From Escherichia coli (GTDB lineage Bacteria; Pseudomonadota; Gammaproteobacteria; Enterobacterales; Enterobacteriaceae), in NCBI RefSeq assembly GCF_003334305.1, contig NZ_QOWS01000041.1: a DNA stretch of 15,676 bases; one strand, 5' to 3'. The notes below the pieces were generated by a model. That model saw nothing but the letters and a program-made list of their open reading frames with translations, made no database searches and was not told the origin of the DNA. Positions 1 to 15,676 of the stretch are shown here, piece after piece. The stretch's first letter is position 1; each line of letters begins with the position of its first letter. The position numbers were made by a program, and so were the translations under genes.

Positions 1-77
1 AGCTGATAGAAACAGAAGCCACTGGAGCACCTCAAAAACACCATCATACACTAAATCAGTAAGTTGGCAGCATCACC
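1..77 (-). mobile_element. IS1 terminal segment (left inverted-repeat end, partial; element body lies outside the window)
   Basis: Positions 1..77 are the exact reverse complement of the canonical IS1 left end beginning GGTGATGCTGCCAACTTACTGAT and running into the insA start region. They are also the exact reverse complement of 15600..15676. Confidence 0.9.
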
Positions 78-413
78 TTCATGGTATTGGTAATATGACA
101 ATATTTTAGAGAGTATATTTTATTCATTATAAAATGCCCCGTAATATTTATCTCACAATGATTATGATTAGTGGATACGCCCCTACATTTCCAGACAGCT
201 GTTATCACTTAATCTATTACTGGCCCGCAGCCGTAGATATTCTAGCCACGGTGGTAACGAGTATCCGGAAGAGATTCCACTTACACTCTTTCAATCCTAT
301 TGCAAAAGCTGATTTACTCAACAGGATTAAAAGAGGGAGTTTGATACAATTTATTTCACTTTTTGTTAGAATACTAATTCTTTTCTTGTATTTTTTGAGG
401 AAATGAGCACGGA

Positions 414-474
414 ACACGACATAATCTGTAGTCAGTAAAGAGTCTATCCTCCCTGACTACAGATTATGTCGTGT
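414..474. repeat. Perfect 22-bp inverted repeat with a 17-nt spacer (ACACGACATAATCTGTAGTCAG / CTGACTACAGATTATGTCGTGT)
   Basis: Read directly: arms 414..435 and 453..474 are exact reverse complements. It lies about 70 bp downstream of the iutA stop. The stem is AT-rich and no U-tract follows on either strand, so it is not a typical intrinsic terminator. Confidence 0.8.
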
Positions 475-546
475 ATTATATGATATCAACTTGGCTGTCA
501 GCGGCCATGTTGATATCAGCGTACCTTTGTTGTAAAGGAATACCGG

Positions 547-2748
547 TCAGAACAGCACAGAGTAGTTCAGACCAAAGGTTCGGCCCCTGCCTTTGTAGTC
601 GTACAGTGACGCTGGGCCGTAACCCGGGCTGTAGTACAGTGGTGCACGCTGCCCCCAGACAGTGGTGTAGTCACGGTCGAAGAGGTTTTCAATGCTGAAG
701 CTGAGTGTACCCACCGGAAGCTGATAACTGCCGAGCAGATCCGCGGTGGTATAGCCATCGACCTTGTAGCCCTGCGCGTCGCTCACGTCAAAGGAGGTGG
801 TGCTCTGCACGCGCAGACTCCACGGGTCCGGTGCCCAGCCAATGTAGGCTGTCGCTTTTGATGGGCTTGCTGTCTTCACATCGTATTTCTGCCAGGTACC
901 GTTCACTTTCGACTCAGTTTTCAGCACGTTGAAGTTCACTCCGGTACTCCAGTCAGTATCAGGAATCAGGTAGTCCACCGCACCTTCCACGCCGTAAATA
1001 CGGCGTTTGTCGTCCACCACGCTGATGGTCAGATCTTTATTCGCCACCACGCTCTTATCAGAAATCGAATAGTAGGCCGCGATTTGGGTACGCAGATTAT
1101 TGCCAGTAAAGCGCCAGCCCAGCTCATAAGAATCGACTTTCACGCCTTCCAGCTTGCTGTCGCTGACGTTCACACTCTTTGTTAGAGGAAGATGGCCGTT
1201 CACTGCAGCACCATAGATGCCGCGACCATAGTATTTACCCGGGTCCGGCAGCTCCACGCCCTGGGAGAAGTTGAGCCATGCCTGCTGGCGTTCGGTGATG
1301 TGCATCAGCAGACCGGCGTTGAACAGGAAGTTGTCGTAATCGACTGAGCCGCCAGGAATGGCGTCGGCGGATGTAGCCTTCCCGGCGGCAATCTGCCGTT
1401 GCTGCGCGTAGCCGATGAAATCATCAATCTTGTTTTCAGTGTACTGATAGCGTACGCCACCGTTGAGGGTAAAGAGATTATTGATGTCATAGCCTGATTG
1501 CAGGAAGGCCGCCAGGTTGGTGATGTCATACGACGGATAGCGCCCGGTGGTGTAAATCTTCTTGTTGTTCAGCCCTCCGGAAGCGCTTGCCTGAGCCAGG
1601 TCGAAGAACATCTGGTTGGAGGTAAAGCGCTCATGATCAGCATCCAGCCCCCAGGTGATTTGCCAGCCGTCCATCGGTTTGCTGTTCAGAGTCAGTTTCA
1701 TGCCGTACTGGTCGGTGTCCTGCTGTGACGAAGAGAAAGCCGTCACCTGTTTGTTCGCATTTACCGTCGGGAACGGGTAGAATCGCAACGACTCATCGCG
1801 GTAGTAAACCTGACCGACCAGCTCCTGTCCCAGAAAAGCGCTGTCAGAGTACTGCAGGCTGATCAAATGCCGCTCAGTGCCGGGAATACGGTCGGAATTC
1901 AGCCCGTTACTGACGAATGGCGTGCTGGTCCCTCTGATGGCAGAGAAGCCTTTCCCGAGATTAAGCCCGTAATCGTCGTCGCCCTGGCTTTTATAGTACT
2001 GTGTGATCAACTGAAGCTGCCGGGATTCATCGATGTTCAGCGTACCAGTTCCCATGATGTCCAGCCGATCGGAGTACTGCAGGCCGGTCTGGGTGTTATC
2101 AAGCAAGGTGGCATCGCCGTTACCGTCAAACCAGCCGCCAAATTTCTGATATGCCACGGAAAGACGTCCGGAGATATGCTCATTTCCGCCGGAGACAGCT
2201 CCGGCAATGCGTTCATCGTGATCTTTACTGCTGCTAAAGCCACTTTTGGTGCCAGCCTCAAACTCCATCATGGTTTCCGGCTGGCCTTTTTTGGTCACGA
2301 TGTTGATCAGGCCACCGGTACTGCCGCCGCCGTACAGGGACGTCGCACCGGAGATCACTTCAATATGGTCGATATTAAAAGGATCTATAGAGTCCAGTTG
2401 TCGGCTGTCGGTACGTGAAGAGTTGAGACGCACGCCGTCAACCAGCACGACCAGCGGGCGGCCACGCACATTCATACCGTAGTTGGTGCGGCTCCGGCTG
2501 CTGACGTCAAGGCCAGGGATCAGCTGAGCCAGTGCGTCTTTAAGCTCTTTGCCGCCCTGAATCTGCTGTTCCAGTTCGGCGTTTTCGATAACCCAGGTGG
2601 TTTGCGCCATCTCCGCTACGGTGCGATTGCTGCGGTTGGCAGACACCACGAACGTTTCATCATCGGTTTGTTGAGCGACTGCTGGCGCCATCATGGTAAG
2701 AAGCAGTGGGTTGAGAGCCCAAAGCGTATACTTTTTGCTTATCATCAT
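547..2748 (-). CDS. iutA: TonB-dependent outer-membrane ferric-aerobactin receptor
   Basis: 733-aa ORF with an N-terminal signal peptide (MMISKKYTLWALNPLLLTMMAPAVAQQ) and a C-terminal aromatic residue typical of TonB-dependent receptors. It sits immediately downstream of iucD in the same orientation. A GGAGGA ribosome-binding site precedes the tandem ATG ATG start. Confidence 0.93.
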   Translation of the reverse strand: MMISKKYTLWALNPLLLTMMAPAVAQQTDDETFVVSANRSNRTVAEMAQTTWVIENAELEQQIQGGKELKDALAQLIPGLDVSSRSRTNYGMNVRGRPLVVLVDGVRLNSSRTDSRQLDSIDPFNIDHIEVISGATSLYGGGSTGGLINIVTKKGQPETMMEFEAGTKSGFSSSKDHDERIAGAVSGGNEHISGRLSVAYQKFGGWFDGNGDATLLDNTQTGLQYSDRLDIMGTGTLNIDESRQLQLITQYYKSQGDDDYGLNLGKGFSAIRGTSTPFVSNGLNSDRIPGTERHLISLQYSDSAFLGQELVGQVYYRDESLRFYPFPTVNANKQVTAFSSSQQDTDQYGMKLTLNSKPMDGWQITWGLDADHERFTSNQMFFDLAQASASGGLNNKKIYTTGRYPSYDITNLAAFLQSGYDINNLFTLNGGVRYQYTENKIDDFIGYAQQRQIAAGKATSADAIPGGSVDYDNFLFNAGLLMHITERQQAWLNFSQGVELPDPGKYYGRGIYGAAVNGHLPLTKSVNVSDSKLEGVKVDSYELGWRFTGNNLRTQIAAYYSISDKSVVANKDLTISVVDDKRRIYGVEGAVDYLIPDTDWSTGVNFNVLKTESKVNGTWQKYDVKTASPSKATAYIGWAPDPWSLRVQSTTSFDVSDAQGYKVDGYTTADLLGSYQLPVGTLSFSIENLFDRDYTTVWGQRAPLYYSPGYGPASLYDYKGRGRTFGLNYSVLF

Positions 2749-2829
2749 TATTCCTCCATACGGGCGGAAAAAATCAGCCCAAAGATGCTGTGTAGCGAGT
2801 TAAAGAAGCAGCCTCCGGCTGCGTTTTCC

Positions 2830-15299: not shown

Positions 15300-15331
15300 G
15301 ATTTAGTACCTATAGTGAGCAAAATTAGAAT

Positions 15332-15372
15332 AAACATAGCAACTACTATGTTTTATAGCAGAAGCTATAAAA
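15332..15372 (-). promoter_or_regulatory. Two adjacent palindromic operators upstream of sitA: an MntR-type box and a second box sharing the ATAGC half-site
   Basis: AAACATAGC-AACT-ACTATGTTT at 15332..15353 resembles the enterobacterial MntR operator (AAACATAGC...GCTATGTTT, recalled from memory). It overlaps TTTTATAGC-AGAA-GCTATAAAA at 15351..15372, which has perfect 9-bp arms. Confidence 0.6.
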
Positions 15373-15373
15373 T

Positions 15374-15392
15374 GTAAATAATTATCATTAGC
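15374..15392 (-). promoter_or_regulatory. Fur-box-like site upstream of sitA
   Basis: GTAAATAATTATCATTAGC matches the Fur consensus at 14 of 19 positions and lies directly upstream of the MntR-like boxes. Confidence 0.45.
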
Positions 15393-15599
15393 GATTATAA
15401 GATCCCAACACAGGGATTAGGTTATTTCCTGCTGACGATGTGGTATTGAGGATAAAAGTTGGGCAGCGCTTTGGCTTTAAAATGAACTTGTTCAGGACGA
15501 TTGGTAATGGCAAAGCAAAAATAATGTAGGTTATTGGCAAGTTCTCTAGGACGCAGGAGAGCATGAAAAACCCAGGGGCAGTCACTAAATGAAGGGATC

Positions 15600-15676
15600 G
15601 GTGATGCTGCCAACTTACTGATTTAGTGTATGATGGTGTTTTTGAGGTGCTCCAGTGGCTTCTGTTTCTATCAGCT
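15600..15676 (+). mobile_element. IS1 terminal segment (left inverted-repeat end, partial; element body lies outside the window)
   Basis: GGTGATGCTGCCAACTTACTGATTTAGTGTATGATGGTG... is the canonical IS1 end reading into the insA start. It is the exact reverse complement of 1..77. Confidence 0.9.

What the first reader, a model, noticed from the sequence alone, without database searches (positions are those of the whole stretch)
1..15676. Whole window is bounded by inverted IS1 ends; the exact 77-bp symmetry suggests an assembly-graph contig edge
Positions 1..77 and 15600..15676 are perfect reverse complements and both are the same (left) IS1 terminus facing inward. The aerobactin/crcB/sit block is therefore flanked by two inverted IS1 copies, the classic composite arrangement of pColV-K30-type aerobactin regions. 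The identical 77-nt length at both edges looks like a k-mer overlap onto a collapsed IS1 repeat node, so the true copy number, completeness and neighbours of the IS1 elements cannot be judged from this window.
Basis: partly seen in the sequence, partly recalled or inferred. Interest (0 to 1): 0.35.

Follow-up and report, generated by a model that had tools for sequence, protein, structure and literature searches.

The report
Short-read contig ending in IS1 repeats
The window is an ordinary short-read assembly contig carrying the well-known aerobactin/Sit iron-uptake block of ColV-type virulence plasmids, cut off exactly one k-mer (77 nt) into each of the two inverted IS1 elements that flank the block in hundreds of finished plasmids.

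Summary
Window 1-77 and 15600-15676 are perfect reverse complements, and each equals nt 1-77 (the IRL/insA end) of IS1, with the IS1 bodies pointing outward.

- Hundreds of closed plasmids carry the same 15,522-bp iutA-iucDCBA-MFS-crcB-sitDCBA block between two complete 768-bp IS1 copies in inverted orientation, IRL inward.
- Independent metagenome contigs with the same junction stop 76-78 nt into IS1. One is an entire contig bounded by inverted 77/76-nt stubs. This is the signature of a k=77 de Bruijn graph edge.

Additions and corrections:
- Because both ends are IRL, one IS1 cannot circularise the block.
- No 8-10-bp target duplication exists in any pairing of flanks in the six loci tested (four junction contexts), so "composite transposon" describes structure only.
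- The block occurs in both orientations relative to RepFIB (815 versus 52 closed plasmids), and in three different backbone contexts. IS1-by-IS1 recombination therefore flips it recurrently, and the orientation in this genome cannot be known from the window.

All of this is already described in the literature. Interest is low.

The parts
1..77 (-). IS1 nt 1-77 (IRL end). The tip GGTGATGCTGCC lies at window 77, the insA GTG start at window 22-20 on the minus strand, and the element continues off the left edge.
   Evidence: Identical to nt 1-77 of the 768-bp IS1 at L001 3310-4077, whose transposase CDS is at 3325-4022 on the minus strand.
15600..15676 (+). IS1 nt 1-77 (IRL end). The tip lies at 15600, the insA GTG start at 15655, and the element continues off the right edge.
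   Evidence: L001 IS1 at 19600-20367, CDS at 19655-20352 on the plus strand.
78..15599 (.). Unique 15,522-bp aerobactin/crcB/Sit block. It is a single-copy graph edge between the two IS1 joins.
   Evidence: 99.98-100% identical over its full length in closed plasmids. 775 of 5,426 complete E. coli genomes hold at least 80% of the window.
547..2748 (-). iutA, the ferric aerobactin receptor gene.
2830..8518 (-). iucD (2830-4107), iucC (4104-5846), iucB (5846-6793) and iucA (6794-8518), the aerobactin synthesis genes.
8654..9847 (+). MFS transporter gene, divergent from iucA.
10023..11674 (.). Decayed Tn3-family element bracketed by 41-nt inverted repeats. It contains crcB (10227-10607, minus), a 90-aa ORF (10679-10951, minus), a 3' fragment of the enolase gene (10948-11361, minus) and a 3' remnant of a Tn3-family tnpA (11368-11616, plus).
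   Evidence: searches (pair I2; CrcB 175.8 bits; eno profile positions 287-422 only), (PGAP pseudogene notes).
11850..15299 (-). sitD (11850-12707), sitC (12704-13561), sitB (13558-14385) and sitA (14385-15299), an Fe/Mn ABC importer.

Best explanation
The window is one complete contig, a unique edge of a k=77 de Bruijn assembly graph such as SPAdes produces. It comes from a short-read assembly of an E. coli or Salmonella isolate that carries a ColV/ColBM-type IncFIB virulence plasmid, or an integrated copy of one.

In the real molecule the 15,522-bp iutA-iucDCBA-MFS-crcB-sitDCBA block sits between two full-length 768-bp IS1 elements in inverted orientation, with their IRL/insA ends facing the block. 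Reads cannot bridge 768 bp of near-identical repeat. The assembler therefore stops at the first k-mer that lies wholly inside IS1, which leaves exactly 77 nt of IS1 at each end. Because the two copies are inverted, the two stubs are reverse complements.

Biologically the inverted IS1 pair makes a composite-transposon-like unit. Its visible behaviour in nature is homologous IS1-by-IS1 recombination: the block is flipped, and the DNA on the iutA side is exchanged or deleted. Clean transposition of the whole unit is not seen.

Shown here: the identity of the arms, the complete IS1 copies in relatives, both orientations, the absence of target duplications, and k-length stubs in other assemblies.

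Inferred: that this particular window is a k=77 contig, and that its own genome has full-length IS1 copies.
For: - Arms: 77 nt, 100% complementary, and equal to IS1 nt 1-77.
- Closed plasmids pECOS88, pAPEC-O78-ColV and pECAZ147_1 carry the window flanked by complete 768-bp IS1 copies. These differ from each other by 0-2 nt within a plasmid, and the transposase start lies at the inner end.
- Junction probes with the IS1 cut out find 815 closed plasmids with sitA|IS1|RepFIB-side DNA and 52 with iutA|IS1|RepFIB-side DNA. The spacing is 768 nt in nearly all rows listed. The other junction is found in 38 and 7 records.
- Three outer-junction contexts (RepFIB/H, RepFIB/sopA, RepFIB/UvrD-OLD), each identical at the nucleotide level, occur with both block orientations.
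- No 8-, 9- or 10-nt target duplication appears in any pairing of flanks in six loci.
- Independent metagenome contigs show the same stubs. L022 is a whole contig of 10,672 nt bounded by inverted IS1 stubs of 77 and 76 nt. L020 begins with a 78-nt stub. L024 ends at IS1 nt 77.
- In 25,555 of 38,055 index blocks that hold this exact IucA, the longest contig is 10-20 kb.
- A public record (NZ_OP331339.1) shows the same artefact with 127-nt stubs at both junctions.
- Literature: iuc/iut plus sitABCD flanked by two inverted IS1 copies, with no target duplication (PMC4707298). Inversion of the sit-iuc region between ColV plasmids (PMC2626276).
- From my own knowledge: 77 is the largest default k of SPAdes for reads of about 150 nt, and 127 is its maximum.
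Against: - The assembly graph, the reads and the source record of this window are not available, so the assembler and its k are inferred from the 77-nt length alone.
- L024's end is the end of the stored locus. I take it to be the contig end but could not prove it.
- The stubs in other contigs are 76 and 78 nt as well as 77, which points to different trimming conventions.
- A few closed records have shorter or variant IS1 copies or junctions: L005 has 257- and 148-nt pieces, and the iutA-side junction starts at core position 20, 42 or 147 in some loci. The exact state of the IS1 copies in this genome therefore cannot be guaranteed.
Confidence: 0.93

Rival explanations
1. The genome really contains two 77-bp IS1 end fragments (decayed IS1 remnants) flanking the block, and the window was cut at their outer boundaries.
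For: Partial IS1 pieces do occur at the block's ends in some deposited records: 257 and 148 nt in L005, and 127 nt in L004 and L011.
Against: - No closed record examined has 77-bp remnants.
- The 127-nt cases equal SPAdes' maximum k and occur at both junctions of one record, so they look like artefacts themselves.
- Independent contigs stop 76-78 nt into IS1 at this junction, and for L020 and L022 the stub lies at the end of the contig.
- Two independent decay events would have to leave exactly equal lengths that match a default k. This is improbable.
Confidence: 0.02
2. The IS1-block-IS1 unit is an active composite transposon that reached its present site by transposing as a unit. The flanking IS1 copies then mark a recent insertion with a 9-bp target duplication outside them.
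For: - The structure is that of a composite transposon.
- IS1-mediated mobility of the pColV-K30 aerobactin system was reported experimentally (de Lorenzo et al. 1988; Perez-Casal & Crosa 1984, as cited in PMC4707298).
- The block is found in chromosomes as well as plasmids.
Against: - No 8-10-nt duplication is seen in any pairing of flanks in the three plasmid loci and two chromosomal loci tested. PMC4707298 reports the same for pEC302/04.
- Both outer flanks are truncated genes whose other halves are not across the unit.
- The chromosomal copies in L014 and L025 carry RepFIB beside the block, which suggests integration of a whole plasmid.
- The RepFIB-side junction is identical in about 867 plasmids, so it is one ancient junction and not the product of repeated insertions.
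Confidence: 0.04
3. The window is a real free molecule or recombination intermediate, such as a hairpin-ended or palindromic excision product, and not a contig fragment.
For: The only support is the perfect terminal inverted symmetry.
Against: - The arms are an arbitrary internal cut of IS1 at nt 77, not a biologically meaningful end.
- The same sequence is embedded in hundreds of closed replicons.
- The same cut is seen in unrelated assemblies.
Confidence: 0.01

Closest known systems
IS1-flanked aerobactin region of pColV-K30 and the iuc/iut-sit virulence block of ColV/ColBM IncFIB plasmids (pAPEC-O2-ColV, pAPEC-O1-ColBM, pECOS88, pEC302/04)
   Same: The gene content and order match. Two IS1 copies lie in inverted orientation, a RepFIB replication region adjoins one of them, and target duplications are absent. 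The window is 99.98-100% identical to these plasmids.
   Different: Nothing of substance differs. The window lacks everything beyond nt 77 of each IS1. I could not read the 1984 paper, so I have not verified whether sitABCD lies between the IS1 copies in pColV-K30 itself.
De Bruijn graph contig ends at collapsed repeats (SPAdes-type k-mer overlaps)
   Same: Each end carries exactly k nt of the repeat, and the same stub recurs in independent assemblies. A k=127 analogue exists in a deposited record.
   Different: The assembler and k for this window are inferred. They are not documented.
Segments inverted by homologous recombination between inverted IS copies (for example IS1- or IS26-bounded inversions in plasmids)
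   Same: Both orientations occur with identical outer junctions, in three backbone contexts. The inversion was noted earlier between pAPEC-1 and pAPEC-O2-ColV (PMC2626276).
   Different: This is not a programmed switch, since no site-specific invertase is involved. No functional consequence of orientation is known or was tested.

Membership tests
IS1 (IS1 family insertion sequence) | Terminal sequence of the about 23-bp IRL (GGTGATGCTGCCAACTTACTGAT) followed by the insA start. | tested here: met
   Window 15600-15676 and the reverse complement of 1-77 are identical to nt 1-77 of the annotated 768-bp IS1A-family elements, and the CDS starts at nt 56. The IRL consensus itself is recalled from my own knowledge.
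IS1 (IS1 family insertion sequence) | A complete 768-bp element encoding InsA/InsAB' (Zn_ribbon_InsA, HTH_Tnp_IS1 and DDE_Tnp_IS1 domains) and carrying an IRR. | not testable with these tools
   The window holds only 77 nt of each copy. Closed relatives have complete copies, but the source genome cannot be inspected.
Composite transposon (IS1-bounded) | Two copies of the same IS bracket the passenger genes. | tested here: met
   The window has two inverted IS1 ends. Relatives have two complete inverted copies.
Composite transposon (IS1-bounded) | An 8-9-bp direct target duplication outside the two IS copies, as evidence that the unit transposed. | tested here: not met
   At least 5 of 9 positions mismatch in every pairing in L001-L003, L012 and L014. 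PMC4707298 also reports no duplication. This cannot be tested in the window itself because the outer ends are absent.
k-mer overlap contig edge (de Bruijn assembly artefact) | The contig ends exactly k nt into a repeat whose boundary coincides with the start of the stub. | tested here: met
   Both stubs are 77 nt and start exactly at the IS1 tip, and the first unique bases differ. 77 is a SPAdes default k (my own knowledge).
k-mer overlap contig edge (de Bruijn assembly artefact) | Independent assemblies of the same locus break at the same place. | tested here: met
   L022 has 77- and 76-nt stubs at its two ends, L020 a 78-nt stub and L024 a 77-nt stub. NZ_OP331339.1 has 127-nt stubs. Contig lengths peak in the 10-20 kb class.
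k-mer overlap contig edge (de Bruijn assembly artefact) | The assembly graph shows the stub k-mer as a shared node with higher depth. | not testable with these tools
   No graph or reads are available.

The most novel reading that the evidence does not exclude
The aerobactin/Sit block might be a frequently flipping segment, with both orientation isomers coexisting within single cultures. Orientation relative to RepFIB or to the outward-facing IS1 ends might affect expression or plasmid stability. In that case the collapsed short-read contig would hide a within-strain structural polymorphism. My evidence shows recurrent flips between plasmids. It shows neither within-strain heterogeneity nor any functional effect.
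Probability: 0.07. Interest if true: 0.3.

Novelty: already known. Interest (0 to 1): 0.1.

Why it matters
The value is practical more than scientific. The finding identifies the window as an assembly fragment, so nothing should be read into its terminal symmetry. It also warns that the block's orientation and neighbours cannot be taken from a reference, whether plasmid or chromosome and whichever backbone. Closed plasmids show both orientations (815 versus 52) and several different neighbours on the iutA side. It further flags at least one public 'complete' plasmid record (NZ_OP331339.1) in which both IS1 copies are collapsed to k-length stubs.

Tried and rejected
- Target-site duplications: I tested 8-, 9- and 10-nt windows. 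The pairings covered a composite insertion, the individual insertion of each IS1, and the pairings expected after an inversion or an intramolecular replicative transposition. None matched in L001-L003, L012 or L014.
- Founding papers: Perez-Casal & Crosa 1984 (PMC214710) and the pECOS88 paper (PMC2687354) are not held. The pColV-K30 comparison therefore rests on the paper's title and on secondary citation.
- PMC6807379 had nothing on this IS1 pair.
- Source contig: the look-up of encoding contigs lists the longest contigs first, so it returned chromosomes and long contigs and not the 15.7-kb class. Only its length histogram was useful.
- Rfam: the gathering-threshold scan of the whole window gave no hits. 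The E-value scan of 9800-11900 gave only chance-level eukaryotic miRNA and snoRNA hits on a hairpin. No fluoride riboswitch was found upstream of crcB.
- IS1 SNP patterns: they show that the two copies within one plasmid are nearly identical, while some plasmids differ from others at four linked sites. With only 10 copies I could not map crossover points.
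Full report
**1. Observation**

Window 1-77 and 15600-15676 are perfect reverse complements ([pair I1], 10). A 77-nt perfect inverted repeat in 15.7 kb is expected by chance about 5e-39 times (my own calculation), so it is not a chance match. The bases just inside the arms differ (t at 78, g on the complement of 15599). The repeat therefore ends exactly where the shared element ends.

**2. What the arms are**

Closed plasmids contain the whole window. In them the arms continue outward into complete 768-bp elements that PGAP annotates as 'IS1-like element IS1A family transposase', with a programmed frameshift. 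The elements start GGTGATGCTGCC and end GGAGTCATTACC.

The window arms equal nt 1-77 of these elements. The transposase CDS begins at nt 56 of the element, which is window 15655 on the plus strand and window 22 on the minus strand. The products carry the Zn_ribbon_InsA, HTH_Tnp_IS1 and DDE_Tnp_IS1 domains (L012). Both arms are therefore the IRL/insA-proximal end of IS1, with the tips facing the block and the bodies running off the window.

**3. What lies between the arms**

| Window coordinates | Strand | Feature |
|---|---|---|
| 547-2748 | - | iutA |
| 2830-8518 | - | iucD, iucC, iucB, iucA |
| 8654-9847 | + | MFS transporter |
| 10227-10607 | - | crcB |
| 10948-11361 | - | enolase gene fragment |
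| 11368-11616 | + | Tn3-family tnpA remnant |
| 11850-15299 | - | sitD, sitC, sitB, sitA |

The block is very common. At least 740 PLSDB plasmids hold at least 80% of the window, many of them at 100% identity. So do 775 of 5,426 complete E. coli genomes.

**4. The real structure in finished molecules**

In pECOS88, pAPEC-O78-ColV and pECAZ147_1 the 15,522-bp core is flanked by two complete IS1 copies in inverted orientation. The two copies within one plasmid differ at only 0-2 positions.

I built 1,400-nt probes that join 700 nt of outer flank directly to 700 nt of inner flank, with the IS1 cut out. A record is fully covered only if it has that exact junction.

| Junction | Closed plasmids with it |
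|---|---|
| sitA \| IS1 \| RepFIB-side DNA | 815 |
| iutA \| IS1 \| RepFIB-side DNA | 52 |
| H-flank \| IS1 \| iutA | 38 |
| sitA \| IS1 \| H-flank | 7 |

("H-flank" is the outer flank next to the hypothetical-protein gene WP_000190053.)

The outer junctions of pECOS88 and pAPEC-O78-ColV are exact reverse complements of each other. One is therefore a precise flip of the other.

The same holds in two more backbone contexts, each with outer junctions identical at the nucleotide level:
- RepFIB/sopA: L003 versus L019.
- RepFIB/UvrD-OLD: L014 versus L016. L017 and L018 are a sit-less version of the flipped form.

Homologous IS1-by-IS1 recombination has therefore reoriented the block more than once. 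PMC2626276 already noted an inversion of the sit-iuc region between pAPEC-1 and pAPEC-O2-ColV.

**5. Composite transposon?**

The structure fits one, but no footprint of unit transposition exists. I tested 8-, 9- and 10-nt windows in every sensible pairing of flanks:
- outer with outer;
- each IS1's own two flanks;
- the pairings expected after an inversion or an intramolecular replicative transposition.

None matched in the three plasmid loci and two chromosomal loci tested. PMC4707298 reports the same for pEC302/04.

Other evidence points the same way:
- Both outer flanks are truncated genes whose other halves are not found across the unit. One is a PD-(D/E)XK nuclease gene lacking its C-terminus. 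The other is a DinB/UmuC polymerase gene lacking its N-terminus.
- The sitA-side inner junction is invariant. The iutA-side junction begins at core position 1, 20, 42 or 147 in different loci. One variant has the second IS1 about 10 nt inside crcB, with the sit operon lost.

This is the pattern expected from IS1-mediated deletions and recombination, not from clean hops of the whole unit.

**6. Why 77?**

In a de Bruijn graph, a unique path that enters a repeat ends at the first k-mer lying wholly inside the repeat. The contig therefore carries exactly k repeat bases. From my own knowledge, 77 is the top default k of SPAdes for reads of about 150 nt, and 127 is its maximum.

I tested the prediction that independent short-read assemblies break at the same spot by scanning metagenome contigs for the exact IS1/iutA-side junction. 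The scan found five contigs:
- L022 is an entire 10,672-nt contig bounded by inverted IS1 stubs of 77 and 76 nt, around the sit-less form of the block.
- L020 begins with a 78-nt stub.
- L024 ends at IS1 nt 77.
- L021 and L023 read through a full IS1.

Two further results agree:
- In 25,555 of 38,055 index blocks carrying this exact IucA, the longest contig falls in the 10-20 kb class.
- The deposited 'complete' plasmid NZ_OP331339.1 has only the last 127 nt of IS1 at both junctions. This looks like the k=127 version of the same artefact.

**7.

- Copy number is partly knowable. Both ends are IRL, so a single IS1 cannot join them into a circle. That would need one IRL junction and one IRR junction. 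At least two inverted copies exist, and the proposed refutation scenario cannot occur.
- The key unknown is orientation and neighbours. Both vary among real plasmids, so reference-guided scaffolding would be unsafe.

**8. Verdict**

It describes an ordinary assembly edge on a long-known plasmid structure. Novelty: already known. Interest: low. The small additions are the orientation counts, the recurrence of flips in three contexts, and the flagged database artefact.

Noticed in passing
L004 (NZ_OP331339.1 107437-108963 and 123085-124611): This deposited 'complete' plasmid has only the last 127 nt of IS1 (nt 642-768) between the outer flank and the block, at both junctions. 127 is SPAdes' maximum k. 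It looks like short-read contigs scaffolded on a reference, with both IS1 copies collapsed.
   Followed up: partly
L011 (CASDMS010000035.1), locus 2823-2949 and 18402-18532: 127- and 131-nt IS1 stubs and duplicated, shuffled sit segments lie around the block inside a 5.2-Mb contig. This is probably another scaffolding artefact.
   Followed up: no
window 10023-11674: crcB, a 90-aa ORF, a 3' fragment of the enolase gene and a 3' remnant of a Tn3-family tnpA are bracketed by 41-nt inverted repeats (GGGGGG[T/C]GAGGGCCAGTGATGTAAAAAA...). This is a decayed Tn3-family element inserted between the aerobactin and sit modules. Chromosomal aerobactin loci (L006-L010, L013) match the window only over core positions 436-9778, so the block is a mosaic of modules.
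   Followed up: partly
window 10607-11700: No fluoride riboswitch was detected upstream of crcB at the Rfam gathering threshold or at E<=1. The only hits were chance-level matches on the perfect 23-nt hairpin at 10108-10161.
   Followed up: yes
L012, L014, L019, L005 (iutA-side junction); L017, L018 (IS1 at about window 10597): The IS1 junction on the iutA side is variable, beginning at core position 1, 20, 42 or 147. The sitA-side junction is constant. In a sit-less variant the second IS1 sits about 10 nt inside the 5' end of crcB. This suggests repeated IS1-mediated adjacent deletions from one side.
   Followed up: partly
L025 locus 2652-3308 and 20532-21045 (just outside the two IS1 copies): Both outer neighbours are truncated genes. 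One is a PD-(D/E)XK nuclease gene lacking its C-terminus, and the other a DinB/UmuC-family polymerase gene lacking its N-terminus. L025 is labelled a chromosome but carries RepFIB beside the block, which suggests an integrated plasmid or a misassembly.
   Followed up: no
L014 19302-21725; L016 37987-40559: In one backbone context the IS1 adjoins a UvrD-like helicase gene and an AAA_15/OLD-TOPRIM ATPase gene (a Gabija-like defence pair), followed by vapBC and ccdAB.
   Followed up: no
L005 (CP035320.1 chromosome), locus 2663-2919 and 18402-18549: In this closed chromosome the block ends in IS1 pieces of 257 and 148 nt, not full copies. I did not determine whether they are real truncations, interruptions by other elements, or assembly artefacts.
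   Followed up: no
H1-H4 (for example NC_018954.1 71122-89720) and H10: In Salmonella plasmids of about 146.8 kb from chicken and related sources, the window aligns in two pieces spread over 18.6 kb, implying an insertion of about 2.9 kb inside the block. In NZ_CP023363.1 the two pieces span 20.7 kb. I did not identify the insertions.
   Followed up: no
window 78-500: This AT-rich stretch (37% G+C) lies between the IS1 tip and iutA. It holds a 90-aa ORF (134-406, plus strand) with no NCBIfam match and a perfect 22-nt hairpin (414-474) just downstream of iutA that resembles a terminator.
   Followed up: partly
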